From: Promethearchaeia archaeon
Lineage (GTDB): Archaea; Asgardarchaeota; Lokiarchaeia; Sigyniarchaeales; SOKP01
Assembly (NCBI GenBank): GCA_029856105.1
Contig: JAHQWH010000045.1
Coordinates: forward strand, 1 to 48,122
Length of the DNA stretch: 48,122 nt
Reading direction: 5' to 3'
Made by a program: the position numbers and the translations under genes. The notes below the pieces were generated by a model, which was not told the origin of the DNA, did no database searches, and saw only the letters and a program-made list of their open reading frames with translations. This document shows positions 28,466-47,285 of the stretch, piece after piece (the stretch's first letter is position 1; the number at the start of each line of letters is the position of its first letter).

Positions 28466-29495
28466 GTCGCATACAAAAGCGATTTTTTTTGGTTTTTTGG
28501 TCGTATCAGGATTAACTATTGGGTTGTTAACTAATAAATATCGAATTAACATGAATGGCAACGAAAACATCGGATTAGCACTTATAGACGCACCTAATGC
28601 GAGCTCTGAAGATTTACTCGTTGACAAGGTGTTCACTTTTCTCGCTCCGAACGACATTCAACAGTTCGACGACCTATACTTATACGAAGAGCTCAATTAT
28701 TATGTATTAATAGAAATCGTAACGCCACATAATTGCGAGATCAACGTTACGGTGGTAGATCCCGATTCAGACATTTATGAAATTTTTAAAACCGAAATAA
28801 ACATATCGCAAGGCGACCAGTGGTTCGAAGTCCCTTTTGGGACGGCGATTTCAGGGAATTATACTTTCTTAATCTCGGTTATTGCCGAGCTGAACTTAAA
28901 CTTATATTTTAAAATCTTTTTCGATAGGGAAGACAAATGCCTGTACGACATCATGTCCCCTGAATATATCGCCAAACTGAAGCTGTATCAAGTTAATAAA
29001 TTTTACGATGGGACGGAAGTAGAGCACAGTATTATGTTAAAAACTGACGTGTCTTACAAGTTCCATATAGGAAGGGTATCAGCTATTGGTGGAGAACCAA
29101 TTAGTCGAGAAGTCGAAGTGTATTACTATCTTACAGATCCTGACGATATTGAATTTACGATATACGCTAACCAGACCATGAAAAGCGTTGGAGAGGTTTT
29201 GCACTTTAATTTCGGTACCGCGATTGGCGGGGTTTACACCGTCAAAATCAAGATTTATTGCAAGGTCGACGTGGTAAATGTAGCTTACGCGATAGCAGAA
29301 GATTATTCGATAAGCACCGGTATAAACGGAACCGAGCCAGATCCCGAACCAACAAATGGAACTATTCAAGGCTATTTTTACATACCGATAGAATGGACTC
29401 TCGGGTTTGTCCTCAGCGCGGGACTCGTAGTTGGAGCTTTGGTAGTTATGGGAAGCGTTCGTAAGAAAAAAAGCTCAGTGTCGTTAAGAAATTAA
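28455..29495 (+). CDS. cell-surface beta-sandwich protein with N-terminal signal and C-terminal TM (start probably ACG 28455 or ATT 28461)
   Basis: Internal duplication (DPD.DI...FGTAI.G.YT twice), Pro linker, TM + KKK; open frame upstream of TTG 28497 supplies the basic n-region after a GGAGGTG RBS. Confidence 0.75.
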   Translation, partial: TAIKSHTKAIFFGFLVVSGLTIGLLTNKYRINMNGNENIGLALIDAPNASSEDLLVDKVFTFLAPNDIQQFDDLYLYEELNYYVLIEIVTPHNCEINVTVVDPDSDIYEIFKTEINISQGDQWFEVPFGTAISGNYTFLISVIAELNLNLYFKIFFDREDKCLYDIMSPEYIAKLKLYQVNKFYDGTEVEHSIMLKTDVSYKFHIGRVSAIGGEPISREVEVYYYLTDPDDIEFTIYANQTMKSVGEVLHFNFGTAIGGVYTVKIKIYCKVDVVNVAYAIAEDYSISTGINGTEPDPEPTNGTIQGYFYIPIEWTLGFVLSAGLVVGALVVMGSVRKKKSSVSLRN

Positions 29496-29565
29496 AGTAT
29501 AGATTGCAGGAGGAGAAAATGACATGGGAAAATGTTATATTAATCTAATTTACATCTTCTTTTTT

Positions 29566-30033
29566 TTATTCAGAAGTTCCTAAATCTTCAGAAACAAGAC
29601 CAAGTTTATCGACCCATTTACGGATTGTTATCATACTTACACGTTGCTCATTCGCGATATCTTGAAGAGATATCCCTAAATCATAATATTGATGCTTTAA
29701 CCAACTTGGATTCATATAATCTTGCTTTTCTTCAAATCTCTTTTTTTCTTCTATATGCCCTCTAAATTTTTTAGGCGATATTATTAGAGCTTTTATTAGA
29801 CCCCAAGTTAATATAATGATTCCAATAATTATCAAAACAATACCACATAATAAAATAATTTCAATTTGTAAATATAAAATTCCATAAGAATAAAATAAAA
29901 GGATTAATACGATACCTGCTGGATTAGATATAATCATCACACCAACGCTTATAAAAAGTATACCAAAAATAATTACACCAACGATATCAATAACGATACC
30001 AAGTAAAGAGTTACTTTTATCAATTTCACTCAC
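29566..30033 (-). CDS. membrane-tethered helix-turn-helix protein
   Basis: N-terminal TMs; WLKHQYYDLGISLQDIANEQRVSMITIRKW HTH. Confidence 0.7.
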   Translation of the reverse strand: MSEIDKSNSLLGIVIDIVGVIIFGILFISVGVMIISNPAGIVLILLFYSYGILYLQIEIILLCGIVLIIIGIIILTWGLIKALIISPKKFRGHIEEKKRFEEKQDYMNPSWLKHQYYDLGISLQDIANEQRVSMITIRKWVDKLGLVSEDLGTSE

Positions 30034-30203
30034 TTCTTATTTTCACCTTTTCTAAGAAATATCTCTCTATAGTTATATTATATATTTATTTCTTTTACTT
30101 TAATAAAGACTTTGCTTTAAATAATTTATAAATTCATAAATTCTAAAGTAATTAGAGTAAAAAAAAATAAGCCTTAAGAAAAAAAATAAATAATTATTAA
30201 TTT

Positions 30204-31473
30204 TTAAGCGCTCAACAAGGTCTTTGCGTTGGTTTGCCATTCAATGACCATTTTAGAAGAGACTCCGTTAATTTCAGAAGCCACTTTTTCGGGGTCGGAA
30301 CTTACCAACTCTTTTACAGAGCCTACTCCAACCTTTATTAAGTTCTTTGCGGTGCCAGCTCCAATTCCTTTAACATCGATAAGTGAATGCTTACCATTCT
30401 GATCATCGGAAATTTCGCTCTTTTCGTCGTTACTCTCTTCTTCTTCGTACAACGTTTCAACTTCGAAATCTAAGCCTTGAGCTTCGGAGACCTCTCCCTT
30501 TTCCGTATCGGCAATCCCTACGCTCGTGATAAAGAACTCTGCTTCCTCTGGTGGCAAATCTGGTGCGTCAACTATTATCGCTCTGCGTTTTAGCGAATTA
30601 TTCGAAGAGAATCCTTTTGTCTTAAACATAACTCGGAAGTGGCAGCCATGAGCTACTATTTAGAAGCGACTGACGAAACATCTCGTCGCTATTTCCGCCT
30701 ATGGCGTCGTTTCCTGAGAACATTCCCATCATCTTAGTTGAAACCTGATTGGTAAGAAGAACTGCACAGTTGTAAGTCTCTGCAACCCGGGAAAGAGCGT
30801 GTATCATGTTATTTAAAAAGCTTTGTCGGCGAGCTAACATGCCAATACCCACATATTCAGCCCTCAAAAGCGCCATCAAACTGTCTACTACAATTAGACG
30901 CACATTTCGAGTTTTGCATAATGTTTCTGCTTTTTGAATCATTTGCGATTGGTGATCCGACGAATATATTCTAGCGTGATAGATTTGCGATAGAACCTTT
31001 TTCGGTTCGAGTCCAAATCTTTTAGCGATTCTTTTGACTTTTTCCTTAGAGAAAGTGTTCTCGGTGTCGATGTAGGCTACAGTCGAACCTAAACCTCCTT
31101 GTTTTTTAGGAAGCTGGATCGTAACGGCAATAGTATGAGCCAAATTAGTTTTCCCGCTTTTAAACGGTCCATACACTTCGGTCAATTTACCCGTTTGGAA
31201 TCCACCACCTAAAATTCTATTCAGTTCGGAAGAGCCAGTTGTAATATATTCAGTATTCTCATAGATCTCCTCGGCTGGTATGAACTCAGTCATACCCAAA
31301 GCGTTTCGCGCGTTCCAAATCAGTTTCTTGGCGGTCTTATCTCCTAACCCGTCTATCTCAGATATGATGTTATGTGGTGACATTGCTAAAGCTTCCGCCG
31401 TGCTAATACCGCTTTCTTGCATGAGTTTTATCTGTCGTGCGTTGATCCCTTTTACTAAATCTAAATCAGACGT
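30204..31473 (-). CDS. radA: RadA/Rad51-family recombinase with extra C-terminal HhH domain; join(31473..30691, 30659..30204), 412 aa if started at ACG 31473
   Basis: N-terminal HhH, ITTGS.ELN.ILGGG, Walker A GPFKSGKT, YIDTENTF, LIVVDS, LRAEY.G...LA.RQ, TNQV; after removing 31 nt: AIGGNIVAHGCHFRV...VDAPDLP.EEAEF.IT..GI.D. Confidence 0.9.
30660..30690 (-). other. candidate 31-nt bulge-helix-bulge (archaeal-type) pre-mRNA intron in radA
   Basis: GGAA/UUCU 4-bp helix, bulges AU^A and AA^A, intron stem GCGAC/GUCGC, exon stem GCCAU/AUGGC; the cuts restore frame and motif. Confidence 0.82.
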
Positions 31474-31528
31474 TTTTTTCTATCAACTCCATGTTGTAAT
31501 TTGAATTAAATCAGATTAGCCACAGTTA

Positions 31529-31544
31529 TTAATAAAGAAAAAAA
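31529..31544 (-). promoter_or_regulatory. T-rich element + TATA box of radA (TTTTTTTCTTTATTAA)
   Basis: Same motif upstream of the FEN1 paralogue (24708-24725); lies in a divergent intergenic region, so not a terminator. Confidence 0.6.
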
Positions 31545-31683
31545 TAAGGTGTAAAAATCAAAAATTACCCCCAATGCCTAGAATTAACTTTAAATAGTTG
31601 ATATTATTATGTCATCTTGAAATTTTTTGTCAAAAATGTCAAAAGAATTTTCAATAATTTCAATAAGAGAGGTAAAATGATAA

Positions 31684-31989
31684 ATGGTTAACTTTTTAAC
31701 AATAATTACTTTTCCTGGAGAAAAGTCAGAAGAAATTGGAAAACTCTTACCTAAATTGCCTAAGTTACCAGACTTTGTCAAACCCCCCCAAATTTTTACG
31801 ACGATTTCAAACGATAATGGAGAAGTTAAAGCTTATGGACTTTATGAAGTGGAAGACAACAAATCTCATGAAGGTTATGTCGCAATTGCAAAGCGTATGA
31901 CAGGTTACTTTGAAGCTGAAGGTGTAAAGTATAAAATAGAAAAATTGATGAGTATAAAGGAATCCTTATCTCTACTTGGCCTTGGGTAA
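31684..31989 (+). CDS. hypothetical protein
   Basis: 101-aa ORF with GAGGT RBS. Confidence 0.7.
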   Translation: MVNFLTIITFPGEKSEEIGKLLPKLPKLPDFVKPPQIFTTISNDNGEVKAYGLYEVEDNKSHEGYVAIAKRMTGYFEAEGVKYKIEKLMSIKESLSLLGLG

Positions 31990-32115
31990 ATATAGCAATA
32001 TTCATATTCAATAAGCAAATTAAATCTTTTTTTTTTATTTACTACACTTTCATTTTCTTTCCAAATTTGCTCACGACAAAATTGAAATTGGAAAATAAAA
32101 ATAGTGTTAGGCTCT

Positions 32116-32238
32116 TTATAATTTCCCGCGTTGCTCAATATCTCGACATACTTCTACTAAATGCTCAAATAGAACTTCCCTGGTCCATTTAGATAAATCT
32201 ATGTCAATTTTTTTGAGTTTTTCTGCTAATTTTTTCAT
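32116..32238 (-). pseudogene. ribbon-helix-helix-like remnant (MKKLAEKLKKIDIDLSKWTREVLFEHL...)
   Basis: Helix pair resembles CopG/VapB RHH; a strand-like IVRRSITL lies just upstream in a different frame. Confidence 0.35.
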
Positions 32239-32444
32239 AGGGTAATCGATCTTCTAACGATGTGTTTATACTCGTAATATAAAAAATAATCTTTAAAGAA
32301 TTAATTCAAAAATCGCTTGTTTGTATCAAAGTCATGGAACAACTGATAATAAGAATATTTATAAGAAATATCAAAAACGACGAGCTATGCTAAAATTCTT
32401 TCAATTTTAATAATTTTTAAATTAATTTCCTAAATATTAAGCGT

Positions 32445-32822
32445 TCACAGTTCTTGCTCAGAAAAAGCTGATAATTCTTTTAAAAACTCTTGCGGGGTAA
32501 TGCCGTGAGTTAAAACCTTATGCCACATTCTAATGTTTTGCGAATGAAAATTCACCTTTCCTTTATCTAAATTTTTGGCAAATTCAAGAATGGTATCCTC
32601 TATGGAGAATTTGGACCTATCTCGGGCCCCAAAGAATTCCCCAAACGCGAAGAATATGTTTATGATCATCTCGATGTCCTCGTCTGAGAATCGCTGCCTA
32701 CACAGATTACAAATAATGCCGAGCTTTAAGCGGGATTGATAGAATCTATGGCGATCTTTTATGTCGGCTCGACAGATCGAACATTTTATTTCGTTCGTGA
32801 TAGTGGTATTTGGCGCATTCAT
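32445..32822 (-). CDS. zinc-finger protein, paralogue of 13802-14185
   Basis: CSIC...CNLC, FSDEDIEMIINIFFAFGEFFG, HGITP. Confidence 0.7.
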   Translation of the reverse strand: MNAPNTTITNEIKCSICRADIKDRHRFYQSRLKLGIICNLCRQRFSDEDIEMIINIFFAFGEFFGARDRSKFSIEDTILEFAKNLDKGKVNFHSQNIRMWHKVLTHGITPQEFLKELSAFSEQEL

Positions 32823-32915
32823 CGTAAATTATATTCTTCACCAATGTATTTAAAGGAAAAGGAAAATTGGTGCATTAAAATTTTGCCTTTATATAATTGG
32901 AAACGCTAACCCTTA

Positions 32916-33626
32916 TTACAAATTTACGATTCCAGATTCTCCAATTTCGTAGACAAATTTCGTAGAGGTACCTTTCGAACTAACTTCCATCTGTTTTAAA
33001 CCCGTCCCTATGGCTTTCGATAAGTTGACATTTATCGAGTCAATTCTATCGTATAACTTGCTAAAAAAAGGTTTTGTCTTGCCTGAGCTAGGATGGAAAG
33101 AAACTTCGTGGATCAATATTAGAATTATTTTCTCTCTTAGGCAACGCATTATCAATGGAAACAACTGAAAGTTGAAAAACTCGTCCATAATAGCGCCCCG
33201 TCTTTTAAAATTCGAGTTAGAAGCGAGGAAATAGCGCAAATAATGGGAAATATTGTCGATAACGATAATCTTTACGTTATTTGGAAAAATCATGGTCATT
33301 AATCGCCTGAAGTAAGCCGATTGTTCTTGGTAGTTCGAAAAAGATTTTATTCCAGGGGCTACAAAAATGTTTTTCAGAACGTAATTGATTATATCAGGAT
33401 AACTTTCATAAAGCGATCTTAACCTTTTTTTAGGAAATTGTTCGCTGGCTTGTATCCAGATGCTTTGGTCTTGATAAGGTTTTTCGAGCGTCATAAGGGA
33501 GCTAACAAATTGCAGAGCCAAGGTAGTTTTTCCCGTACCAGATTTACCAGCGATCGATATAAGACCATTGCTCTTAGATAAATCAAAAATATGAGAAATA
33601 ATCGCCGATTTTTCGAGCTCAATCAC
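32916..33626 (-). CDS. RadB-like RecA-fold ATPase (RadA paralogue lacking the N-terminal domain)
   Basis: GKSGTGKTTLALQ, E.F..KRL, IIVIDNIS, ILIHEV. Confidence 0.78.
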   Translation of the reverse strand: MIELEKSAIISHIFDLSKSNGLISIAGKSGTGKTTLALQFVSSLMTLEKPYQDQSIWIQASEQFPKKRLRSLYESYPDIINYVLKNIFVAPGIKSFSNYQEQSAYFRRLMTMIFPNNVKIIVIDNISHYLRYFLASNSNFKRRGAIMDEFFNFQLFPLIMRCLREKIILILIHEVSFHPSSGKTKPFFSKLYDRIDSINVNLSKAIGTGLKQMEVSSKGTSTKFVYEIGESGIVNL

Positions 33627-33655
33627 GATTTAATCACCATCTAAGATTTTTACTT

Positions 33656-34006
33656 TTAATCGCTATTCAATAAGTCTAAAACTTCTCTCTGAGTTTTATC
33701 TATCTCTTCTCGACGCTTCTGGCTCTCCTCGGATATTTCCCTCGAAGCGCTCGAGCCTTGGGGATTGTTAGAAAGTAGTTGTTGGAGCATAATTAGTGCC
33801 ATTAAATCGTCGAAGTTTCTATCTTGCGAAGTTTGATTTCCGCCAATGAAAGCCCTTAGTAGACCGTTCCCGTTGCCACTTTTTCTCGCTTTGTAGAACA
33901 AATAGAAGAACAGTCCTACACCGATAATAACTAAGGTGTAAACTGGTTCTCTTTGGTAAAACATCAACATTGCGACTACGACCGCCACTAAACAAAACCC
34001 TTTCAC
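33656..34006 (-). CDS. small membrane protein with C-terminal coiled coil
   Basis: Two TMs; GTG start directly after the upstream stop. Confidence 0.7.
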   Translation of the reverse strand: MKGFCLVAVVVAMLMFYQREPVYTLVIIGVGLFFYLFYKARKSGNGNGLLRAFIGGNQTSQDRNFDDLMALIMLQQLLSNNPQGSSASREISEESQKRREEIDKTQREVLDLLNSD

Positions 34007-34768
34007 TTACCATTGCGCCTCTTTTTCTTGTAATTTCCTTGGAGCGAACATTTTAAACCTTCTTTTTCGAGTTAGTAACCTTATGCTCGGAAATCTATAC
34101 CCTCTTAAAGCCTTGAAGCTGCTGACGAATATCGAAACAACGATTTTCAAAACGAAATAGCCCAATACAACGAAAAAGAAGTATTCGATGTAGTATAGAA
34201 CTTCGAACGGTAAGTATATAAAATAGAGGTCTACGAAAAACCATACGATAGTTCCTGACGCGACGACTAAAGCTATCTGATAAAAAGAATAACTCGGGTC
34301 CTTTCTAAAAGTTTTGCCGATAACTTTCATGTCTTGCCCCGAAGGTTCGGAACCGATAAAAAGCGAAACGCAGAAAACGGTGGCGACTACATCTACCCAT
34401 GGATCAGTATCTAAATTGAAAATGATGTCTAAGCAGAAGAGAAAAAGGAAGGTCGACACGAACAACGGGGCTACGCTGATAAAAAAGGTTTGTAATAATG
34501 AATTTCGCTCGAATTCAGGTAAGTCGACCGAACCGTGAGGAGCGACCCTCCCTTTATCTTCGCTGCGATATTTAACTTTTATTTTGCCGGTTTTGACGCC
34601 AAACATAACACAGAAAACGTAGTGGGCCACTTCGTGGACAAAAATCCCAACGAAGGCTAATAAATGCAGAAAAGCTTTGAAACCCGGTGTGTGAGCGCGT
34701 CTATACCAAGATTGAATTGTGATAGAAACGACTAGCATAAAGAACAACCAAAAAAATAAGTCCAGCAT
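34007..34768 (-). CDS. membrane zinc metalloprotease, M50/DUF3267-like
   Basis: VHEVAH (HExxH) in a TM, SVAPL, PSGQD. Confidence 0.78.
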   Translation of the reverse strand: MLDLFFWLFFMLVVSITIQSWYRRAHTPGFKAFLHLLAFVGIFVHEVAHYVFCVMFGVKTGKIKVKYRSEDKGRVAPHGSVDLPEFERNSLLQTFFISVAPLFVSTFLFLFCLDIIFNLDTDPWVDVVATVFCVSLFIGSEPSGQDMKVIGKTFRKDPSYSFYQIALVVASGTIVWFFVDLYFIYLPFEVLYYIEYFFFVVLGYFVLKIVVSIFVSSFKALRGYRFPSIRLLTRKRRFKMFAPRKLQEKEAQW

Positions 34769-34860
34769 AAATTCAAAAAATAATGAGAATTTATAAAGAA
34801 AAAATTAGATTTATGGGAATTGTAAATAATTATCAAACAAAAAACTTCATTAAATCAGGT

Positions 34861-35580
34861 TTAATTGTTCTTAATATTTTCTAACTTCCTAGCTTCTTTT
34901 CGACAGTAAGCAATATATTTTTTGGCGTTATTGCCTAATTCATTAGTCAAGATTTCTGGAATCTGATTACTATAGAGAACTAAACTTTGTAGATTATCGA
35001 GGGATTCCAAACCCTTGATCTCGGTAATCTGATTATTATTAAGATTTAAACGTTGTAGACTATCGAGGGATTTCAAACCCTTGATCTCGCTAATTTGATT
35101 TCTATTAAGATCTAACTCTTGTAGATTAACGAGGGATTCCAAACCCTTAATCTCGGCAATCCGATTAAAACTAAGACTTAAATCTTGTAGATCAGCGAGG
35201 GATTCCAAACCCTTGATCTCGGTAATCTGATTAAGAGAAAGATATAACTCTTTTAGATTAGCGAGGGATTCCAAACCCTTGATCTCGGTAATCTGATTCC
35301 CACCAAGATTTAAATGTTTTAGATTAGCGAGGGATTCCAAGCCCTTAATCTCGGTAATCTGATTCCCACCAAGATCTAAACCTCGTAAATTATCGAGGGA
35401 TTCCAAACCCTTGATCTCGGTAATCTGATTCCCACCAAGATCTAAAACTTTTAGATTAGCGAGGGATTCCAAACCCTTAATGTCGGAAATGTCTTTAATA
35501 TTCATCTTTGAAAGATCCAAAATTATATCTTTCTCTACTTCAATCTTCTCTCCGTGTACTATAACAAATTGCAACCCCAT
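34861..35580 (-). CDS. leucine-rich repeat protein (SDS22-like 22-aa LRR)
   Basis: Tandem LESL.NL..L.L..NQITEIKG repeats. Confidence 0.95.
   Translation of the reverse strand: MGLQFVIVHGEKIEVEKDIILDLSKMNIKDISDIKGLESLANLKVLDLGGNQITEIKGLESLDNLRGLDLGGNQITEIKGLESLANLKHLNLGGNQITEIKGLESLANLKELYLSLNQITEIKGLESLADLQDLSLSFNRIAEIKGLESLVNLQELDLNRNQISEIKGLKSLDSLQRLNLNNNQITEIKGLESLDNLQSLVLYSNQIPEILTNELGNNAKKYIAYCRKEARKLENIKNN
34975..35485. repeat. 66-bp tandem repeat encoding LRR units (8 copies of the GAGGGATT core)
   Basis: Core at 34999, 35065, 35131, 35197, 35263, 35329, 35395, 35461. Confidence 0.92.
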
Positions 35581-35867
35581 TTTTTTTGTCTCCTCTTTTA
35601 ATTCATGTCATGAGTTTTATATTGTTCGCTGCGAATTTATAACTTGTTATTATTGTAATAGGACGCGAAATAATAAAAAGTTAAAAGAAAAAAAAGAGAA
35701 GTAATAAACGATATTAAATTAATCGAAGACTTAGAAAAAAGACTTGAAGTTAGAGAATTAAAAATAGGAGGAATTATACATAGTGGTGTAAGAGCGGAAA
35801 GTAATATCAAAATTGTTCTCTAAGAAAATGAATTTCTTCTCTTGTAGATTTCTTTAATAAATCAGAA

Positions 35868-36098
35868 CTAATCGCTTTTTTTGAAGGCACGAATAAAGGC
35901 TAGCTTTTCTTTAACCGTTAAAATATTCGAAGGATCGTCGATAGTTAACAGGTCTTCTTCGTCAAATCGCTCTCCGCACTCTGTGCATTCGAGTTCGGCT
36001 CCAGACTCCCACGTAAACCTAATCATCTTCTTAGACTTACATCGCGGGCAACTAAATTTTTCGAACCGAAAATCTTCACCTTTCTCCAAACGCTCCAA
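35868..36098 (-). CDS. small zinc-ribbon protein
   Basis: CPRC...CTEC. Confidence 0.7.
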   Translation of the reverse strand: MERLEKGEDFRFEKFSCPRCKSKKMIRFTWESGAELECTECGERFDEEDLLTIDDPSNILTVKEKLAFIRAFKKSD

Positions 36099-36776
36099 CT
36101 CTTTTTTTCGAATTTCCTTTAATTATTAATCTTATTTTAATTATTTAATTTCTTTGACTTTTATATAAAAAAATGATAGAAAGTATAAGGTTTTAGTAGA
36201 AATGACCTGATTTTTTCTAGCAAAACTTCTTTTAGTTCCATTAAGACACTATCAGAAAGATTTAAAGAAAAATACAATTTTTAAGAGGTGTTTAAAAAGA
36301 AATTTATCGATAAGATAAGTGTAAGAATAAATATGATATTCATTTAATTCACTACAACGGGAGACTTAGGAAAAGTCGAAGAAAAATAATCCAATTTTAA
36401 TGATTTATAAAATAATCTTTCAATTCGATTGGATTTTAATTCTATTAAGATTATTATCATAATCAATTTAAAATATCAATATTAAATTAATTGGAGCATT
36501 CAAATTTTTTTAATTTCTCAATTTAATCTGTAAATTTGACAATCGTGAAAAAGTGATTTTCTTATTTTTATGATAGAATTGCAAAATTGTGTTTTTCATA
36601 AAAAAACTTAATTTTAATCTTCTAAATATGGAATCTTTCTATAGAAATAAATGAATTTCAGGAGATTTAATTCCATTTTCGCTTCAAATTTCATTATTTA
36701 CGCTTTTATACGCTTTCTTTTTGAACTTTTTACCAAATTGCAAATCTTAATATAGCATACTGGTGATCTTCATTGT

Positions 36777-38075
36777 TTGAAAAAAAAAATTAAAAAAAAG
36801 TTAGTGATTAAAAAAAAAATGGCAACCCACGAATTAGTAAAAATCGATTCGCTAGAAGTCGACTCCGCTCAAAACCCTTTGGAGCGCTGCGATATTTGCG
36901 GTTCTTGCGATATTGTCGAAACTCGCGAGGGCTACACCTGTCGTGACTGTGGTATCGTTCTGGAAGTTCAGAAATTAGAGTACCACAGACCGTATGACGC
37001 CGACATCGTTCAATACGCCGTTTTAGGTAAAACACAAATGGGGTACAAAAGCGAAAGGCGCGCAACAAAAAATTCCGTTAGGCTCGAAGGGTTAAACAAG
37101 TTAGACTCTCAATGTACGAGCGAAGAAAACGTTGTAATTTCGGCAAAGATTTTGATAAAAAGCATTTTAACAAACCTTGACTTTCCTCTGAACGACTTTG
37201 TTAGCATTTTAGAAACCTTCAAAAAGATTCGAGCTCAATTAGGAAAAGGCACGAAATACAGGAGCACCGAAATGTTAATCCCTTGCGTGATTTATTTTTA
37301 TTACAAGCATAACAATACGCCCATAAGCGAAAAAGAATTATTAGAAGTTTCGAAAATTTCTAAAAAAGATTTCAACGAGTTCAAGATTCCTATGGCAAGC
37401 TTATGGCCGCAATACAAAGAAAGAGACCGCAAGGAATACATAATCCAAAGAATTTTAGAAATTACCGAGCACTTTGATTTGGGAATGCCGTTTTATTACC
37501 AGTCTTACAAGATTTTATCTCGGTTTTACGAGAAAATTAAAAACACGAAGGACGACGTAATAGTGGGTCTCGTGACCTCCATCACTCTTCTCTGTTCTCA
37601 AGCCGAGGGAGTGAGCGTCTCAGCTCTTTGCGAGAGGTTAGGGATCAAAATGTCGACGATCCACAGGCAAGTGGAGAGGAGAATTATAGAGAGATTTAGA
37701 GTTCCAGGTTTTAGAAGTTTAGTAAAATCCGCTGGTTTGTTAAAGAAAGTTATGACTAAATTAGGAGTGCTCGACTCTACTTTTATCGATGTAGACGGAG
37801 AATCAGTCAATTACGAAGATTCCCTCGTTGATGGCGCCGACATCATCCAAGTAGTCTTAGGGAACGCGACCCATGTGTTTAACCACTTAAACGAGAGCAA
37901 TGATTTTTACCTATTCTTAAAAGACATTCATGGGTACTTATTTGCGACCATCATTCAGAATCATAACAATTACATTGATAACGATAGAAAAGTAGAAAAT
38001 TGTGAAAACAAAAGATTTGTTAAGCTAGAATTGTGGAGGTATTACAACCCCACGGGGCCCCCTTTGACTTGTTAG
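36777..38075 (+). CDS. divergent transcription initiation factor IIB (TFB) paralogue
   Basis: Zn ribbon CDICGS..IV....YTCRDCGIVL, two cyclin-like repeats (YRSTEMLIPCVIY; VSALCERLGIKMSTI), long C-terminal extension. Confidence 0.8.
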   Translation: MKKKIKKKLVIKKKMATHELVKIDSLEVDSAQNPLERCDICGSCDIVETREGYTCRDCGIVLEVQKLEYHRPYDADIVQYAVLGKTQMGYKSERRATKNSVRLEGLNKLDSQCTSEENVVISAKILIKSILTNLDFPLNDFVSILETFKKIRAQLGKGTKYRSTEMLIPCVIYFYYKHNNTPISEKELLEVSKISKKDFNEFKIPMASLWPQYKERDRKEYIIQRILEITEHFDLGMPFYYQSYKILSRFYEKIKNTKDDVIVGLVTSITLLCSQAEGVSVSALCERLGIKMSTIHRQVERRIIERFRVPGFRSLVKSAGLLKKVMTKLGVLDSTFIDVDGESVNYEDSLVDGADIIQVVLGNATHVFNHLNESNDFYLFLKDIHGYLFATIIQNHNNYIDNDRKVENCENKRFVKLELWRYYNPTGPPLTC

Positions 38076-38226
38076 CGCTGCTTTCATACTTCTTTTATTC
38101 TAATCTTCTTTCTATTTATCTTTCTGCTTATTCTTTAGTAATACATCTCTCTTTTTTCTTCTCGGAAAATTTTAGAATTACGATTGAGAGCTAATAATTA
38201 GAAATTAGAAAAAATCGAAAAAATAA

Positions 38227-39315
38227 TTATTGTTTTCTCTTCCTTACATGTTTAATTAACAATATGGTTACTATGCCTAATATTGCTACTCCACTAATAA
38301 TCAAAATTAAAAAAATTATTCCACAATCGTTATTTTCGAAAATATTCTCATTACACTCGACTTCTTCTATGCATTCATTGTTTCCTAAGAAAGTATTTCC
38401 TATGACGGTGTTATAATCACTATACCACAAAAATATCCCATACTCGTTGTTATTTGCAGTGTTTCCCGAGATGGTGTTAAAATCACTCCAAAGTAAAGAA
38501 ATCCCAGAATTATCATTGTTATATGCAGTGTTTCCCGAAACGGTGTTATAATTACTAAAAGTTAAATACATCCCATACTCGTTGTTATTTGCGATGTTTC
38601 CCAAAACGGTGTTACGATCACCCGAAGCTATAATTATCCCATTCTCGTTGTTATTTGCGATGTTTCCCGAAATGGCGTTAAAAACGCTCACATGTAACAA
38701 TATCCCATGATAATTATAATTTACGTGGTTTCCCGAAATGGTGTTATAATCACTCCTATCTAAATATATACCACGAAAGTTGTTATTTACATCGTTTCCC
38801 GAGATAGTATTATTATCACTATAAAATAAACCCATCCCACTACTATTAGATGAACAATTGTTATCAATTAAGAATCCATTATCCGTGTTATTCAATAGAA
38901 TTCCCGCATTATATGCTCCTTCCGAATTGAAGACAGTGCAATTTTCAATCCTAAAGTATGCAGTGGAATTTTCAATCAAGATGCAACTTCCAGTATTATT
39001 AGTATCTATTACCAAATCTTCTATGACATAAGGGTCGGAATAAGTGCCATCCCCCGTACAAATTCCCGCACTCTTAGCAACAGTCCAATTATTATCAATA
39101 TGAATTTTACCCGAAACTGCTGAGATTTTTGGATTTTTATTATCAAAATTAATATCATCGCTATATTCCAAACTTTTGATGCTACTGCCCGTAACAAAAC
39201 CAAGATTGACGGTAATTATTGGTGATAAAGCGAAAATGATTCCTAAAGCGATTAAAATAATAATTTTTGATTTTGCATTTGATTTCATTTTATTTACTTT
39301 TCTCAGCATTTTCAT
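38227..39315 (-). CDS. cell-surface right-handed beta-helix (NosD/CASH) protein, paralogue of 24730-25845
   Basis: CTGDGT.SDPYVIE, 22-aa GI.L..SD.NTISGN repeats with about 66-bp DNA period, TM + RKRKQ tail. Confidence 0.9.
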   Translation of the reverse strand: MKMLRKVNKMKSNAKSKIIILIALGIIFALSPIITVNLGFVTGSSIKSLEYSDDINFDNKNPKISAVSGKIHIDNNWTVAKSAGICTGDGTYSDPYVIEDLVIDTNNTGSCILIENSTAYFRIENCTVFNSEGAYNAGILLNNTDNGFLIDNNCSSNSSGMGLFYSDNNTISGNDVNNNFRGIYLDRSDYNTISGNHVNYNYHGILLHVSVFNAISGNIANNNENGIIIASGDRNTVLGNIANNNEYGMYLTFSNYNTVSGNTAYNNDNSGISLLWSDFNTISGNTANNNEYGIFLWYSDYNTVIGNTFLGNNECIEEVECNENIFENNDCGIIFLILIISGVAILGIVTILLIKHVRKRKQ

Positions 39316-39525
39316 TTACCCTCTTTTTTATTTATAATGATCAAATTTCTATCATAGAATAAGGAATATAAATGTTATGCTGAAATTAACCAGTAATTTC
39401 TTACTTCTATTGGTATTTACATCTACATACTTATATACGCTTCAATTTTAACCCTTTTTTTTTCCTTTATAAGGTTACGATTAATTTAGTCTTAAAGCTT
39501 TTAAAATATATTCACATGAAATATT

Positions 39526-42456
39526 ATGCAATCGAAAAAAACTATAGTAATTGGAATTGTATCAATATTATTTTTAGCTTGTTTTTTGATTTTTGACAGC
39601 AATAGCAAGTCTCAAGTTGCCTTGGATATCGTATCATATGTCAATTTCGATACTCCAAAATCTTCCGATGTGACAAATCTTGAAATTATCGAATCTATAT
39701 TCGACTCTAAAAACGATGATTATATTACCTACGGTTATTATTCTCAACTTTACTCCGATTCGCTTCAAGCAACTTATTACGCGCTTTCAGTTTTAGACGC
39801 CATCGGAAAATTAGATGAAATTGATCAAGGAGAAGTTTCTAATTATGTAATGTCGTTTTACAACTCAAGCTCTCACCAGTTCGTAGATTCAAGCGCGAAA
39901 AGATATATGTCTTCTATAATACCAAACTTATATATGCCGCTAACTACTTTGTTAGAGGTTAATTGCTACGCGGTGCTATCTTTAGACATTTTAAACGGCC
40001 TGCAATTCATCGATACTGGTGAAACGATCGATTTTATTTGGGATTGCTACCACCCTGACCTACATGGATTTATAGGTCAGCCGTACGATGCTTCGTTAGA
40101 CGAAGGTTTTAAAATACCCACTGCGGACGATACATATTATGCTGTAATAACACTCGATCTTCTTATACCTGACTGGAACAGCTACTCCCAAGAAAGGAGC
40201 GACATCGTGAGCTTTATAGATGGGTTACAATCAATAGGCTCCCACGCAGGCTTCTATAACGATAACGAACCATTATTTGATTCTTTGTTAGAGATAGAAC
40301 CGAATCAATTCGCGTCTTTTTACGCCATCAAAACTTTAGAAACCTTTGGAAGTAGCTATATCAATGTTATTGACATGGATAGGTTTCAGCAAGATCTAAA
40401 CGACCTTTATTACCCCGACGATTTCTACTTCGATATATCTTCGGTCAATTGGTTCACTAATTATACTAATATAGTCGCAACTGCCATAAATTTAGAACTG
40501 TCAGACATGATGGATTTTACAGGTATTAACAGAAGCGAAGTAATAAGTTTCATAATTAATAATAGGAACGCTTTGGGCGGTTGGGACGCTTCGACTACGA
40601 TCAAGTACCATGAATTAATAGACACTTTTCAAATCGTTAGGTCGCTTGCAAACACGGGAGCGCTCTCGGAATTAACTCTAAGCGAGAAAAACGAGATCGC
40701 CTCTTTTATCCGGCTATTTTCCCAGTATAACGGGTACTCGTTGCTTTCGGAAGATTACACGTCAGTAGAGCTTATTCACTCGATAATTTCTTCTTACGAT
40801 TATTTCGATAAAATCGCGGACTTAGACATACAAGGGTTGTACGACCAGTTAAAAGGAAGCGCGCTGTATATGTGGGAGAAAGACTTTTTTTTCGCTTGTA
40901 CTAAGCGGGAAGCAAATGTCCCAAGCTTCCGTTCCAAACCGCTCGATTATTACACTTTGGGATATCACAAACACCTCCAAGAAATAAACGCGTTCTTCTC
41001 CCATAAAGAGACTTACTTGATTCTTAGTTCGCTACAGAAAATTTTCAAACTTAACGATTTTGCCTCCTCCCACGATCTTAATTCCGTATTGCAAGATATA
41101 ATCGATTCGCAATTTTTAGATTCTGAATACCAAGAAAATTTTGGAGCTTTTCTTTTCTATGATCTGGAGCAGATTTCGGAATGGAAGAATAGGTTGATTT
41201 ACTTGCAGTACTCTTTTTACGCGACTAAAGTTATGGAACTTATTGCTGATTATTTAGGGTTAGGACCTATTACGAATTTAGGCTTCGATAAATCGGGTTT
41301 GGCGACTTACATCGTTAGAAACGTTGTAGAATCTCCAACAGAACTTTTTTTTGATGTCGAATATTCTAACTCAATCGAGATCGCTTTAGAAAACACTTAT
41401 TACGCGATTTACATCTTGAAAGCAATTGACGAGTACAATTTGGATAGTACGAAAATAGAAAACTTCGTTTTTAACCACCTTAATTACTCAAACGTAAAAA
41501 ATCTCTATTACAGCTACAAGATATCGGAAATTTTAGACTTACAGGTCAATTTTGACGTGGAACAATCGCACTCTCTAATACAATCGATTTATTCTAACTC
41601 TCACAACGAGTTTTTTGAGTCTACGGAAAGAAACGCGCTGGAGCAAGATATTTTCGCGTGGGTCTGCGAAATGGCTAAAAACGATCAAGTAAGAGTTAAC
41701 ACCCAATACTCTAACTCCATCCAATTGGGAGAAAATAACTTAATTTCTGTTGAGCTGTGCAACCTAATTTTGTCCGATTTCGGCCAATACACGACGGTTA
41801 AACTAGAAAGCGAGCAACTCGGAACCATTTTATTAGATAAAATGACAAATCACACATATCAAAAAGAGATACACGTTCCTATCGACCCTCAGAATTACCC
41901 TCTAATCGAAGGAGAATTGTGCGTGTACGACGGTAGCCTTAAAGTTGCGCAATTCCCAATCTCTTTTCAAACTACTTTTGATACGATTTATAGCATTTCC
42001 ACTTCAAAAACAGAATCACGGATCGAAATAACAGTTCTCGCGTCCTTACGGTTTGTCTCCGGAGAACAACCAGTGTACGATGGATTTATGAGCGCCGAAG
42101 CGTATAGAGACGGTACTTACATTGATACTATATTTTTCGCTTCGGAAGACGATTTGAAAAGCACTACATTTACTTTCGTCTATCGACCTTCTTACTCCGG
42201 AAATTATCGTTTTGCAATATATATGGAAGATCCCTACCATTCGAGTTCGCAATTTGTGAGCGATATTACTTACATTTATAATGATTTAGATCCAATTCAT
42301 GGAGACGATCCTATTCCAAGTTACGAAAGCGACATAAACTTAACAATTCCATTGGCAGTGGTTATTCTTACTGTAGGATCGGGGGGGTTTGCTAGTTCTT
42401 TAATAAAATCTAAGAAAAAAATTAAAGGCAAGCTAAATAAATTTAAATCTAAATAA
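39526..42456 (+). CDS. large cell-surface protein with prenyltransferase/squalene-cyclase-like alpha-alpha repeats and C-terminal beta domains
   Basis: Signal helix; repeated TYYA...L..L and GGW/GGF-like motifs; C-terminal TM + basic tail. Confidence 0.75.
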   Translation: MQSKKTIVIGIVSILFLACFLIFDSNSKSQVALDIVSYVNFDTPKSSDVTNLEIIESIFDSKNDDYITYGYYSQLYSDSLQATYYALSVLDAIGKLDEIDQGEVSNYVMSFYNSSSHQFVDSSAKRYMSSIIPNLYMPLTTLLEVNCYAVLSLDILNGLQFIDTGETIDFIWDCYHPDLHGFIGQPYDASLDEGFKIPTADDTYYAVITLDLLIPDWNSYSQERSDIVSFIDGLQSIGSHAGFYNDNEPLFDSLLEIEPNQFASFYAIKTLETFGSSYINVIDMDRFQQDLNDLYYPDDFYFDISSVNWFTNYTNIVATAINLELSDMMDFTGINRSEVISFIINNRNALGGWDASTTIKYHELIDTFQIVRSLANTGALSELTLSEKNEIASFIRLFSQYNGYSLLSEDYTSVELIHSIISSYDYFDKIADLDIQGLYDQLKGSALYMWEKDFFFACTKREANVPSFRSKPLDYYTLGYHKHLQEINAFFSHKETYLILSSLQKIFKLNDFASSHDLNSVLQDIIDSQFLDSEYQENFGAFLFYDLEQISEWKNRLIYLQYSFYATKVMELIADYLGLGPITNLGFDKSGLATYIVRNVVESPTELFFDVEYSNSIEIALENTYYAIYILKAIDEYNLDSTKIENFVFNHLNYSNVKNLYYSYKISEILDLQVNFDVEQSHSLIQSIYSNSHNEFFESTERNALEQDIFAWVCEMAKNDQVRVNTQYSNSIQLGENNLISVELCNLILSDFGQYTTVKLESEQLGTILLDKMTNHTYQKEIHVPIDPQNYPLIEGELCVYDGSLKVAQFPISFQTTFDTIYSISTSKTESRIEITVLASLRFVSGEQPVYDGFMSAEAYRDGTYIDTIFFASEDDLKSTTFTFVYRPSYSGNYRFAIYMEDPYHSSSQFVSDITYIYNDLDPIHGDDPIPSYESDINLTIPLAVVILTVGSGGFASSLIKSKKKIKGKLNKFKSK

Positions 42457-42623
42457 AATCGTACTTATTTTTTCTCTTTTTTTAATTATTATTATATTTG
42501 TTATTAGTGAAGGCTAATCTAATATGGTTTTAGAACTTGTTAAATTTTGGGTGGATATAAAATTCAGTGATAAATATTGAAGTTAAGTTATGTTTATATC
42601 CATATTAAATTATATTATTATTT

Positions 42624-43007
42624 ATGGAAAAAGCAGATAAATATTCTCTTGTTCTTCTATTAATTTTAATCGTTTATTTAAGTTCTAGTTTTATTTTCAA
42701 CACATTTGTTAAAGATCCAGAATTGGCTGATTCCTTTGCAATCTTCGCACTTATAATTTGTCTGACATGTGTTTTTAGTTTTGTTGGATATCTAATTATA
42801 AAAAAGAAAAAGTACACGAGAAATCAAAGAATTTTCTTATTACTTTTTTTATTAATTATTGGTTTTATTGATTTTATTCTTTTTATTATTGTTATGATTT
42901 CAGGTATAATGATTTACGGCTTCATATTAGGAATTTACAATTCCATATCTCTTGGCACGTTTGTTATAATTATAGTTATTATTGAATCAAAAAGTTCAAA
43001 AATATGA
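42624..43007 (+). CDS. 4-TM membrane protein
   Basis: Hydrophobic helices, CpG-poor. Confidence 0.7.
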   Translation: MEKADKYSLVLLLILIVYLSSSFIFNTFVKDPELADSFAIFALIICLTCVFSFVGYLIIKKKKYTRNQRIFLLLFLLIIGFIDFILFIIVMISGIMIYGFILGIYNSISLGTFVIIIVIIESKSSKI

Positions 43008-43093
43008 TTTTTATTAATAATTAAACTCCATCGCTATTATTTGTAAACGCCCTAAATTTTTCCTTTTTATTCTCTCGATAAATTTATGTAGTA

Positions 43094-43669
43094 ATGACTC
43101 AGAACGCAAAAATTAAGCAGTTAAATCAGATCTTATCAGCGTTGGAGAAGTTCGAAGTCCGAAAAGATAGCCTTTTTAGTCTCGATAAGTTAGCAGACTA
43201 CCTCGATCTATCTACGAGCGAATTAGATGCATTTTTAGAGATAATTTTTCGCTTCCAAAAGTTATTTGATTGTGTTTTCGAAGGTTCCTTTCTCTGTAAA
43301 AAGTGGAAAAACGATAAAAATTACTTAATTTTAAAACCAAAATCAGAAGTTAAAGATGGTAGCGTTCTCGAACTAAAAGAAATAGAAATCGATCGAGACC
43401 AAATTAAATTGTTAAGCGACATAGTCTACTTTTTTCGACGCGTAAAAATAGGGAAAGGGTTTGATCTGAAAAAAAATGGCACTGAGCTTTCGAGAAAGGT
43501 AAAAAAGCTAAAGAAGGCTCACCCGTACTTTTTCGAGAGTAAAGGGAACGATCTCGTGTACCCTTCAAAATTGGCGATAGAAGCGGGTAACTTAATCTTG
43601 TCTTACGATAGAAGCAAAAAGTCGGTTTCCAAAATACAAATAGGAGAATACTTCGTAAAAATCGTTTAG
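43094..43669 (+). CDS. hypothetical protein, possible winged-helix DNA-binding
   Basis: FSLDKLADYLDLS.SEL HTH-like; first gene of the hef operon. Confidence 0.6.
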   Translation: MTQNAKIKQLNQILSALEKFEVRKDSLFSLDKLADYLDLSTSELDAFLEIIFRFQKLFDCVFEGSFLCKKWKNDKNYLILKPKSEVKDGSVLELKEIEIDRDQIKLLSDIVYFFRRVKIGKGFDLKKNGTELSRKVKKLKKAHPYFFESKGNDLVYPSKLAIEAGNLILSYDRSKKSVSKIQIGEYFVKIV

Positions 43670-43685
43670 AAGGAGTTCGAGGTTA

Positions 43686-46431: not shown

Positions 46432-46471
46432 TAACTAAAGCTATCAAAACAATTTTTTTTTGTGATTTTTC

Positions 46472-47201: not shown

Positions 47202-47285
47202 CTCAACTTTGATTACGAGATAGACTCTCCTTTTCCATATCAAGAAAAGAACCACTCTTTATATCTTAATATATTATATGAAAAA

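What the first reader, a model, noticed from the sequence alone, without database searches (positions are those of the whole stretch)
36777..38075. Divergent TFB paralogue embedded in the cluster as a possible sigma-like master regulator
Seen: Zn ribbon and two cyclin-like repeats, but no canonical B-reader (GPEWR), an altered BRE-recognition helix (LGIKMSTIHRQV versus the usual GVTEVTIRNRY), and a roughly 100-aa C-terminal extension. It is preceded by the longest intergenic region in the window (about 680 bp). Its own promoter looks canonical (GCAAATCTTAATATA), not T-rich. Established: Sulfolobales TFB3 activates the ups/ced DNA-exchange genes after DNA damage. Inference: an independent Asgard equivalent at the top of a cascade.
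Basis: partly seen in the sequence, partly recalled or inferred. Interest (0 to 1): 0.7.

Follow-up and report, generated by a model that had tools for sequence, protein, structure and literature searches.

The report
Island-borne rewired TFB transcription factor
This gene encodes a real but strongly remodelled copy of the archaeal basal transcription factor TFB; it sits inside an optional DNA-recombination gene island of Loki-type Asgard archaea whose genes share a rare T-rich promoter, so it probably works like a private sigma factor, but binding and expression remain untested.

Summary
ORF 36819-38075 (+) encodes a 418-aa protein with a Cys4 zinc ribbon, two TFIIB-type cyclin folds (P. woesei TFB core 1d3u_B, Z 18.0, rmsd 2.7 A over 197 of 201 residues), a changed B-reader, a rewritten BRE-recognition helix and a C-terminal extension of about 100 aa.

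The family is confined to one Lokiarchaeial family (97 of 134 genomes) and, weakly, its sister. Copy number varies and some copies are pseudogenes. It lies in a conserved island of spare recombination genes.

In this genome, 8 of 15 island TATA sites carry a T-run plus C/G exactly where TFB reads DNA, against 11 of 1345 elsewhere. The TFB gene itself never carries it.

New points here:
- The family matches the TFIIB-like protein of Lokiarchaeal virus WyrdV1 (E 3.7e-15) far better than that protein matches cellular TFBs.
- The most constant neighbours are a site-2-protease-like membrane protein and a giant surface protein.
- The C-terminal domain is optional.

Factor-to-motif reading is inferred, not shown. 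One genome with a broken copy keeps intact motif promoters. The scan has already reported this island and TFB in other genomes. I found no paper on it.

The parts
36819..38075 (+). CDS of the divergent TFB paralogue (418 aa plus stop). The longest ORF starts at TTG 36777, but ATG 36819 is the conserved start.
36879..36968 (+). Zinc ribbon, residues 21-50. CxxC...CxxC with C24, C27, C41 and C44 invariant.
   Evidence: (Brf1 match covers 19-177)
36969..37118 (+). B-reader/B-linker-like region, residues 51-100. It has RPY in place of WRAF and TQMG in place of STMI; P58, T72, G75 and E79 are nearly invariant.
37119..37418 (+). First cyclin fold, residues about 101-200.
37419..37748 (+). Second cyclin fold, residues about 201-310, including the helix-turn-helix.
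37641..37682 (+). BRE-recognition helix GIKMSTIHRQVERR, residues 275-288. The canonical invariant T, E, R and R are replaced by K/R, M, Q/H/N and Q.
37773..38072 (+). C-terminal extension, residues 319-418. About four predicted beta strands at low confidence; the end motif is (K/T)GPP with P414 and P415 at 90% or more. The domain is missing in some family members.
36740..36774 (+). The gene's own promoter-like element GCAAATCTTAATATA plus the conserved block GCATACTGGTGATCTTCATT. It is not of the T-rich class.
36099..36818 (.). Long AT-rich intergenic region upstream of the gene. The equivalent divergent region is 240-670 nt in other genomes.
34791..34804 (-). T-rich promoter (TTTTTTCTTTATAA) ending 22 nt before the ATG of the S2P-like gene. 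It is conserved at this position in six other genomes.
39455..39472 (+). T-rich promoter (TTTTTTTTTCCTTTATAA) of the 976-aa surface-protein gene.
32847..32863 (-). T-rich promoter of the Zn-finger gene 32445-32822.
28088..28102 (+). T-rich promoter of the Zn-ribbon gene 28148-28465.
26979..26993 (-). T-rich promoter of the 74-aa gene 26730-26954.
16763..16777 (-). T-rich promoter of the operon 16178-16711 / small GTPase / 384-aa protein.
14208..14220 (-). T-rich promoter of the Zn-finger gene 13802-14185, at the leftmost edge of the island.
34007..34768 (-). Membrane protein with invariant HExxH and PSxxD motifs, site-2-protease-like. It is divergently adjacent to the TFB gene in 20 of 29 loci; in this window an LRR gene and a Zn-ribbon gene are inserted between them.
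32916..33970 (-). Rest of that operon: a 104-aa single-pass membrane protein (33656-33970) and a KaiC/RecA-like ATPase (32916-33626).
39526..42456 (+). 976-aa surface protein with signal/anchor segments and alpha/alpha-toroid repeats. It lies directly downstream of the TFB gene in 16 of 29 loci; here a NosD-like gene is inserted between.
13802..48122 (.). The conserved island as far as the window shows it. It holds a small GTPase, an OB-fold protein, an XPG/FEN nuclease, a CoiA-like nuclease, a RadA paralogue, a DEAD helicase and the end of a Hel308-like helicase. The left flank 1-13762 holds ordinary metabolic genes.

Best explanation
The gene encodes a complete TFB-family initiation factor: zinc ribbon, reader/linker, two cyclin folds and a terminal helix-turn-helix. 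It belongs to an accessory, sometimes multi-copy gene island found in one family of Lokiarchaeia.

Proposed mechanism:
1. The gene is transcribed from an ordinary promoter by the housekeeping machinery.
2. The protein binds TBP on the island's promoters.
3. Its rewritten recognition helix has Gln/His/Asn and Gln where every canonical TFB has Arg. It reads the T-run plus C/G element that directly abuts the TATA box, which is the BRE position.
4. It recruits RNA polymerase through the retained zinc ribbon and reader/linker.

This would switch on the island's spare recombination enzymes and its membrane and surface proteins, as an alternative sigma factor does in bacteria.

Shown here: the fold, the helix substitutions, the island, the promoter class and its confinement to island genes, and the linkage between gene and island.

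Inferred: that this protein, and not another factor, reads the motif; that it supports initiation; and when it is made.
For: Fold and homology:
- 1d3u_B Z 18.0, rmsd 2.7 A, 197 of 201 residues; Foldseek top hits are all TFIIB/TFB.
- Family profile against PDB gives TFIIB at E 5.5e-8 and Brf1/Brf2 at about 1e-4.
- hhalign to the genome's own six TFBs: prob 99%, E 2.5e-18.

Helix:
- The canonical TFBs here have invariant T288, E289, T291, R293 and R295.
- The family has I-(R/K)-M-S-T-I-(Q/H/N)-x-Q-V-K.
- The helix-turn-helix and the zinc ribbon are the best conserved segments (mean top-residue frequency 0.59 each, against 0.26 for the C-terminal part).

Promoter class:
- 10 matches against 0.94 expected in the window, all within 14.2-39.5 kb.
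- Genome-wide, 8 of 15 island TATA sites carry it against 11 of 1345 elsewhere (odds ratio 139, p 1.6e-12).
- Several of the others lie beside second-copy island genes on C35, C191 and C16.
- T is 95% or more at four positions of the BRE region, where general promoters are A-biased.
- Orthologous promoters keep the motif across genomes, often ending 22 nt before the ATG.

Linkage and distribution:
- The gene's own promoter lacks the motif in 10 of 10 loci.
- About 38 genomes carry the gene and an island marker on one contig, 4-24 kb apart.
- Across 135 genomes: both 77, TFB only 21, marker only 14, neither 23.
- The motif follows the gene where the recombination genes are absent (G261, G189, G183, G170 C6).
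- No TBP gene lies in the island.
Against: - There is no binding, expression or start-site data.
- In G177 (95% complete) the only family copy has a 1-nt frameshift and three TAG stops, yet intact genes nearby keep perfect motifs.
- In G239, which has neither the gene nor the marker at the thresholds used, a homologue of a non-island motif-bearing gene keeps TTTTTTGCTTTATAA upstream. It sits at a contig end.
- About 11 motif-type promoters in this genome lie outside recognisable island genes.
- The genome has six other TFB paralogues, and the island has several small Zn-ribbon proteins.
- Related genomes are not independent, so the 2x2 association is overstated.
Confidence: 0.55

Rival explanations
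1. The T-rich element is read by something else: one of the six canonical TFB paralogues, a small island Zn-ribbon protein, or simply TBP and DNA shape. The divergent TFB would then have another role, for example as a competitor or repressor that occupies TBP or RNA polymerase, or as a co-factor without sequence reading.
For: - G177 has a broken copy beside intact motif promoters.
- G239 keeps a motif on one gene without a detectable copy.
- There are motif promoters outside the island.
- The island encodes several Zn-ribbon or Zn-finger proteins: 13802, 28148, 32445, 35868 and 45862.
- The genome has six canonical TFB genes.
Against: - All six canonical TFBs keep the standard T-E-x-T-x-R-x-R helix.
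- The motif sits exactly at the BRE position, and the only TFB with a changed BRE helix is the island's own.
- That helix is the most conserved part of the family.
Confidence: 0.2
2. The gene is the transcription factor of a mobile or virus-derived element. The island would be a domesticated or still mobile element that brought its own TFB to redirect the host polymerase, as Asgard viruses and mobile elements are reported to do. The recombination genes would serve the element and not the cell.
For: - The WyrdV1 TFIIB-like protein matches this family at E 3.7e-15 over 223 columns, but the cellular TFB profile only at E 0.065.
- TFB genes are reported in WyrdV1 and several Asgard mobile elements (10.1101/2021.07.29.453957).
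- Distribution is patchy, with 0 to 4 or more copies, pseudogenes and fragments.
- The flanks differ between genomes.
- A second diverged copy set exists in this genome.
Against: - No integrase, capsid or replication-initiator gene, and no terminal repeat, was seen in the part of the island in the window.
- No relative was found on IMG/VR viral contigs with the single-protein scan.
- WyrdV1 lacks the strict motif.
- This reading also does not exclude the sigma-like mechanism.
Confidence: 0.15
3. It is a lineage-wide housekeeping factor, a Brf1-, Rrn7- or Orc6-like cyclin-fold protein serving a specialised polymerase task or replication, and it sits next to the cluster by accident.
For: - Zinc ribbon plus two cyclin folds plus a C-terminal extension is also the Brf1/Rrn7 layout.
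- JGI labels two members with the combined COG name for Brf1/TFIIB.
- There is a weak Orc6 profile hit at E 0.08.
Against: - It is absent from 37 of 134 genomes of its own family, including six that are 95-99% complete, and from about 250 other Asgard genomes.
- Copies are variable and some are broken.
- The C-terminal domain is optional and the least conserved part.
- Brf1 and Brf2 score below TFIIB/TFB.
- It is tightly linked to the island in about 38 genomes.
Confidence: 0.04

Closest known systems
Canonical archaeal TFB / eukaryotic TFIIB (P. woesei TFB core with TBP and BRE-TATA DNA, PDB 1D3U and 1AIS)
   Same: Zinc ribbon, reader/linker, two cyclin folds and a terminal helix-turn-helix in the same order. 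Z 18.0, rmsd 2.7 A over 197 of 201 residues. hhalign E 2.5e-18 to this genome's own TFBs.
   Different: - Only about 16% identity; the Pfam TFIIB model does not score it.
- The B-reader differs, with RPY in place of WRAF.
- The recognition helix has Gln/His and Gln where the canonical Arg residues stand.
- There is an extra, optional C-terminal domain.
- It is accessory, not universal.
TFIIB-like protein of Lokiarchaeota virus WyrdV1 (MZ666939.1, QYW08131.1; Medvedeva et al., bioRxiv 10.1101/2021.07.29.453957)
   Same: It belongs to the same divergent clade by profile comparison (E 3.7e-15, 22% identity, 223 columns), against E 0.065 to cellular TFBs. It shares the PY motif and the LGIxxST helix.
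   Different: The viral protein has 240 aa, with no zinc ribbon and no C-terminal domain. Its genome has no strict T-run/C/TTTA promoters. It is not part of a recombination island.
Sulfolobales TFB3 and the Ups/Ced DNA-damage programme (PMC6101594, PMC6101591)
   Same: A TFB paralogue tied to genes for DNA handling and recombination.
   Different: TFB3 is a truncated paralogue that acts as an activator. That it lacks the cyclin core and works alongside TFB1 is my recollection, not checked here. No private BRE is described for it. Here the full DNA-binding core is kept and its reading helix is changed. No damage induction, pili or Ced homologues were shown here.
Promoter-selective TFB paralogues: S. 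acidocaldarius TFB2 (bioRxiv 10.64898/2026.09.06.749720) and haloarchaeal TFB families (Turkarslan et al. 2011, cited in that preprint)
   Same: Full-length TFB paralogues that direct the polymerase to a subset of promoters, comparable in role to sigma factors.
   Different: For TFB2, the TATA boxes of target promoters are near-identical and the BREs similar, differing mainly in spacing. Here the BRE-position element is qualitatively different (a T-run) and the helix is rewritten. The regulon is a physically linked accessory island.
Bacterial alternative sigma factors controlled by site-2 proteases (SpoIVFB with pro-sigma K; RseP, RseA and sigma E). Named from established knowledge, not tested here.
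   Same: An alternative initiation factor with its own promoter class is encoded next to an HExxH intramembrane metalloprotease-like protein and a single-pass membrane protein.
   Different: The protein families are unrelated to sigma factors. No cleavage site, tether or anti-factor interaction has been shown. The resemblance is in gene neighbourhood only.

Membership tests
TFB/TFIIB family | N-terminal Cys4 zinc ribbon | tested here: met
   CxxC-x13-CxxC. C24, C27, C41 and C44 are invariant in 48 members. The ribbon aligns with the TFB ribbon in hhalign and with Brf1 residues 3-152. Pfam Zn_Ribbon_TF scores only E 0.04 on the single sequence.
TFB/TFIIB family | Two tandem cyclin folds forming the core domain | tested here: met
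   AF2 pLDDT above 90 for residues 100-320. 1d3u_B Z 18.0, rmsd 2.7 A, 197 of 201 residues. Foldseek TM 0.79 on the target. The Pfam TFIIB repeat model itself does not reach threshold.
TFB/TFIIB family | B-reader and B-linker between the ribbon and the core | tested here: inconclusive
   The region is present and conserved (P58, T72, G75, E79). It aligns RPY with WRAF and TQMG with STMI. There is no GPEWR, the model is of low confidence there (pLDDT 45-67), and function cannot be judged from sequence.
TFB/TFIIB family | C-terminal helix-turn-helix that reads the BRE, with the canonical T-E-x-T-x-R-x-R helix | tested here: not met
   The helix-turn-helix is present and aligned. Its residues are (K/R)-M-S-T-I-(Q/H/N)-x-Q, whereas the six canonical TFBs of this genome keep T, E, T, R and R invariant. 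The fold feature is met; the canonical sequence signature is not.
TFB/TFIIB family | Binds TBP-DNA and recruits RNA polymerase to start transcription | not testable with these tools
   This needs EMSA, in vitro transcription or ChIP.
Brf1 / Rrn7-TAF1B type TFIIB-related factors | A C-terminal extension homologous to the Brf1 blocks or the Rrn7 C-terminal domain, and universal presence in the lineage | tested here: not met
   The profile and fold matches to Brf1 and Brf2 cover only the ribbon and cyclin folds and rank below TFIIB. The extension is optional and poorly conserved. The gene is absent from many complete genomes. The fold of the extension itself could not be modelled.
Peptidase M50 / site-2 protease clan (for the neighbour 34007-34768) | HExxH in a membrane helix plus a second motif supplying an Asp ligand in another membrane segment | tested here: inconclusive
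   HExxH and PSxxD are invariant in 10 homologues, including the sister family and a paralogue. Pfam DUF3267, M50B and M50 score at E 0.002-0.01, below their cut-offs. No structure was predicted.

The most novel reading that the evidence does not exclude
The conserved core of the locus may be a membrane-to-promoter signalling unit. It consists of a site-2-protease-like intramembrane metalloprotease, a single-pass membrane protein, an ATPase, this rewired TFB and a giant surface protein.

In this reading the alternative TFB is held or matured at the membrane. It is released by regulated intramembrane proteolysis and then turns on a private promoter class.

That would be an archaeal counterpart, built from eukaryote-type basal transcription parts, of the bacterial S2P / anti-sigma / sigma circuits. 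It may share ancestry with the TFBs that Asgard viruses carry.
Probability: 0.15. Interest if true: 0.85.

Novelty: new variant of a known kind. Interest (0 to 1): 0.62.

Why it matters
Whether archaeal TFB paralogues give real promoter specificity through the BRE, as sigma factors do through the -35 and -10 elements, is still debated. Studied cases show only subtle promoter differences.

- one TFB clade with both key arginines of the reading helix replaced;
- a qualitatively different element at the BRE position;
- both confined to the same accessory island.

The prediction can be tested directly with recombinant protein, TBP and two short DNAs.

The kinship with a viral TFB-like protein also bears on how viruses and mobile elements redirect a eukaryote-like transcription machine.

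The site-2-protease neighbour suggests a possible control route.

Tried and rejected
- Single-sequence Pfam and NCBIfam scans do not recognise the cyclin repeats. A single-sequence PDB search gave only E 0.1-0.4.
- My first reading, a lineage-wide Brf-like housekeeping factor, was dropped after the distribution and synteny results.
- The C-terminal domain folded alone with 29 sequences gave pLDDT 55, unusable for a fold search.
- The IMG/VR scan failed with the alignment and found no relative with the single protein.
- Rfam found nothing in the long upstream region. Repeats there are low-complexity only.
- Raw genome-wide pattern counts are dominated by background: 33-93 hits, of which 2-7 are in the window. 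They cannot serve as a cross-genome test, so that test was not run.
- A tRNA-promoter baseline failed because aragorn found only 7 tRNAs. I used TATA sites 19-24 nt before ATG codons instead.
- Sister-family loci were too fragmentary for a helix-motif covariation test. Only G143 shows a variant helix (LEITASTVYSH) alongside a variant motif (T-run, GC, TTTTATAA).
- Apparent pseudogenes in G153 turned out to be intact cores that merely lack the C-terminal domain.
- Literature searches found no paper on this family.
Full report
**What is there**

The window is contig C45 of a 3.66-Mb, 238-contig Lokiarchaeial metagenome-assembled genome, about 92% complete. An open frame runs 36777-38075 on the + strand.

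Among same-genus loci the stretch between the TTG at 36777 and the ATG at 36819 changes length by non-multiples of three. The ATG and the residues after it are conserved. The protein is therefore 418 aa from 36819.

On the single sequence, Pfam and NCBIfam give only sub-threshold hits to the TFIIB zinc ribbon and to generic helix-turn-helix models. They give none to the TFIIB cyclin repeat. The same Pfam model finds six canonical TFB genes elsewhere in the genome and skips this one.

**Is it a TFB?**

Yes, by profile and by fold.
- The protein belongs to a large family: 366 word-indexed hits and 352 representatives at 50% identity.
- A 48-member alignment shows four invariant cysteines of a zinc ribbon.
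- The family profile hits the first cyclin repeat of TFIIB at E 5.5e-8. It hits Brf1 and Brf2 at about 1e-4, with the Brf1 match spanning the ribbon as well as the first repeat.
- Profile-profile comparison with the six canonical TFBs of this genome gives 99% probability and E 2.5e-18 over 261 columns, from the ribbon to the last helix.
- The AlphaFold2 model has pLDDT above 90 from residue 100 to 320.
- Its best structural matches are all TFIIB/TFB. The P. woesei TFB core in its TBP-BRE-TATA complex (1d3u_B) scores Z 18.0, rmsd 2.7 A, 197 of 201 residues. Brf2 and the cyclins score lower.

**What is changed**

In the hhalign alignment, EYHRPYDAD stands where canonical proteins have PEWRAF or ERRAYT. 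TQMG stands where they have STMI. A reader/linker therefore exists but is not canonical. Four of the six ordinary paralogues here also lack an exact GPEWR.

The last helix reads GIKMSTIHRQVER where the canonical TFBs read GVTEATIRNRYKE. In the six canonical genes T, E, T, R and R of that helix are invariant. In the family the corresponding positions are K/R, M, T, Q/H/N (62% Q) and Q (81%).

That helix-turn-helix and the zinc ribbon are the best conserved segments of the family. The C-terminal 100 residues are the worst.

The extension is predicted as a few beta strands at low confidence, both in the whole protein and alone. It ends in a conserved (K)GPP. It is dispensable. Two copies in G153 stop right after the post-HTH helix, many representatives align only to residues 23-320, and the viral relative ends at the helix.

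**Where the family occurs**

In 400 Asgard genomes the family profile (E 1e-20 or better) is found as follows:

| Group | Genomes with a match |
|---|---|
| This genome's taxonomic family | 97 of 134 |
| Sister family (weak matches) | 7 of 14 |
| All other families | 0 of about 250 |

Within the family it is missing from six genomes of 95-99% completeness. It is present in up to four or more copies in others, and sometimes broken. This genome has the full copy plus a 43%-identical fragment at the start of contig C191. This is the pattern of an accessory gene, not a basal factor.

**The island**

I ran tblastn of the window's proteins against 40-kb regions around the gene in ten genomes. Six regions of the same family (one of them only partly) and one of the sister family share a block that in the window runs from 13802 to the window's end. 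It contains:
- two small Zn-finger paralogues;
- an operon of a 177-aa protein, a small GTPase and a 384-aa protein;
- an OB-fold protein;
- an XPG/FEN nuclease;
- a RadA paralogue;
- a KaiC-like ATPase;
- a membrane protein;
- the TFB;
- a 976-aa surface protein;
- a DEAD helicase;
- a Hel308-like helicase.

A CoiA-like nuclease gene (16846-17664) also lies in this stretch. It has a homologue in only one of the ten regions, an orphan-copy locus.

The left flank holds ordinary metabolic genes and no integrase.

A marker from the island (16178-16711) is found in 91 of 135 genomes. The table against the TFB is: both 77, TFB only 21, marker only 14, neither 23.

About 38 genomes carry both on one contig, 4-24 kb apart. 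In the single-contig genome G189 they lie 470 kb apart.

All 14 marker-only cases have the marker within about 10 kb of the contig end on the side where the TFB would lie. I fetched seven of these contigs, and six confirm that the contig stops short. None of them shows an island without the gene.

**The promoter class**

Upstream of the first genes of the island's transcription units lies A-TTTTT(T)-C/G(1-2)-TTTA(A/T)A(A/T)A.
- The window has 10 matches to TTTTYSTTTAWAW against 0.94 expected from shuffles (largest 4). All lie between 14.2 and 39.5 kb.
- Genome-wide there are 1360 TATA-like sites 15-70 nt upstream of ORFs of 80 aa or more. Only 19 have the T-run plus C/G directly upstream: 8 of 15 in the island and 11 of 1345 elsewhere (odds ratio 139, p 1.6e-12).
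- Several of the others lie beside second-copy island genes on C35, C191 and C16.
- In 114 instances from the window and 11 related regions, T is 95-100% at four positions just upstream of the C/G. An A is enriched 26 nt downstream, consistent with a start site.
- General promoters in this genome are slightly A-rich at those positions.
- Orthologous promoters keep the element in other genomes, often ending exactly 22 nt before the ATG.
- The TFB gene never carries it (0 of 10 loci). Its own upstream block, GCAAATCTTAATATA followed by GCATACTGGTGATCTTCATT, is conserved within the genus.
- There are two TBP genes in the genome and neither is in the island.

**How it probably works**

The element occupies the place where the TFB helix-turn-helix contacts DNA in the 1D3U complex; that placement is established knowledge for that structure. 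The only TFB in the genome whose reading helix is changed is the one encoded among these promoters. That helix is under the strongest conservation in the family.

Replacing the two arginines by glutamine or histidine fits a switch from G-containing or purine-rich sites to A:T pairs. This rests on a general rule of protein-DNA recognition and is inference only.

I therefore favour a private initiation factor for the island, made from an ordinary promoter. My confidence is about 0.55.

**Against this reading**
- No binding or RNA data exist for the locus.
- G177 has only a broken copy (a 1-nt frameshift and three TAG stops) next to intact genes with perfect motifs.
- G239, without a detectable copy, keeps a similar motif on one gene at a contig end.
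- Some motif promoters lie outside recognisable island genes.

First, the only hit in the phage collection is the TFIIB-like protein of Lokiarchaeota virus WyrdV1. By profile comparison it belongs with this family (E 3.7e-15) and not with cellular TFBs (E 0.065). The virus lacks the strict motif. The paper on Asgard viruses reports TFB genes in WyrdV1 and several mobile elements. Exchange between the island and viruses or mobile elements is therefore plausible.

Second, the most constant neighbours are not the recombination genes. In 29 loci a membrane protein with invariant HExxH and PSxxD motifs lies divergently next to the gene in 20. It has weak Pfam hits to M50, M50B and DUF3267. The 976-aa surface protein follows the gene in 16. 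In G189 these three stand alone.

The protease-like gene heads an operon with a single-pass membrane protein and an ATPase. This resembles bacterial site-2-protease control of sigma factors, but only by gene neighbourhood. The truncated G153 copy still sits beside this operon, so the C-terminal domain is not required for the association.

**Standing**

The scan has already described this island and its TFB in other genomes. My tests on this window agree with those notes. They add the viral kinship, the optional C-terminal domain and the G177 counter-example.

I found no paper on the family.

I file it as a new variant of a known kind, namely promoter-selective TFB paralogues.

Noticed in passing
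window 36152-36232 (-), promoter 36260-36272 (-): Inside the long upstream region, a full T-rich motif (TTTTTCTTTAAAT) is followed about 20 nt later by an ATG. That ATG opens a 26-codon ORF (MELKEVLLEKIRSFLLKPYTFYHFFI). It could be a leaderless micro-gene or a decoy promoter.
   Followed up: no
window 30204-31422 (-): The RadA paralogue is split into two overlapping ORFs here (266 and 141 aa). Its homologues in G203, G228, G249 and G267 are single ORFs of 382-417 aa. This fits the intron or frameshift that another note on this window proposes.
   Followed up: partly
G000 contigs C191:5-1406, C35:30763-35815, C16:3455-8576: The same genome holds a second, diverged set of island genes spread over other contigs, again with T-rich promoters. 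It comprises a TFB fragment (43% identity), an S2P-like paralogue, the GTPase operon (74-88% identity) and a surface-protein paralogue (41%).
   Followed up: partly
G177:C64 about 44182-45358 (locus L090/L091): The only family copy in this 95%-complete genome has a 1-nt insertion and three in-frame stops. All three are TAG, and one replaces the conserved Gln of the reading helix. It could be recent decay, an assembly error or TAG read-through.
   Followed up: partly
G153:C58 about 39362-40465 (locus L086/L087): This family copy is markedly more G+C-rich in its coding sequence than the others and lacks the C-terminal domain. That suggests a copy that has lived in a different genomic background.
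   Followed up: no
L078 (WyrdV1) upstream of genes at 1112, 2194 and 2591: Three viral genes share a repeated upstream block, ATTTTGTTTTTTAAGGTATTAGGCACTTAGCCTAATCG. It begins with a T-run, G, T-run element loosely like the island motif.
   Followed up: no
window 17984-18496 (+): A Ras-family small GTPase gene (Pfam Ras, E 7e-44) has 30 or more paralogues scattered over the genome. It sits inside the island but is not part of the conserved block.
   Followed up: no
window 16846-17664 (+): The gene has a CoiA-like nuclease domain (a competence-protein family; E 8e-11). Of the ten related regions compared, only one orphan-copy locus has a homologue.
   Followed up: no
window 36760-36774 (+): The block CTGGTGATCTTCATT between the gene's TATA-like box and the predicted start site is conserved in same-genus loci. 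It could be an operator, and it contains a GGTGATC Shine-Dalgarno-like string that has no conserved start codon after it.
   Followed up: partly
G000 C227:13373-14500 (-): A 375-aa Cys-rich protein gene with a T-rich promoter lies directly downstream of a canonical TFB paralogue. Its homologue is not found in four of five island-less genomes, so it may belong to the same accessory set.
   Followed up: partly
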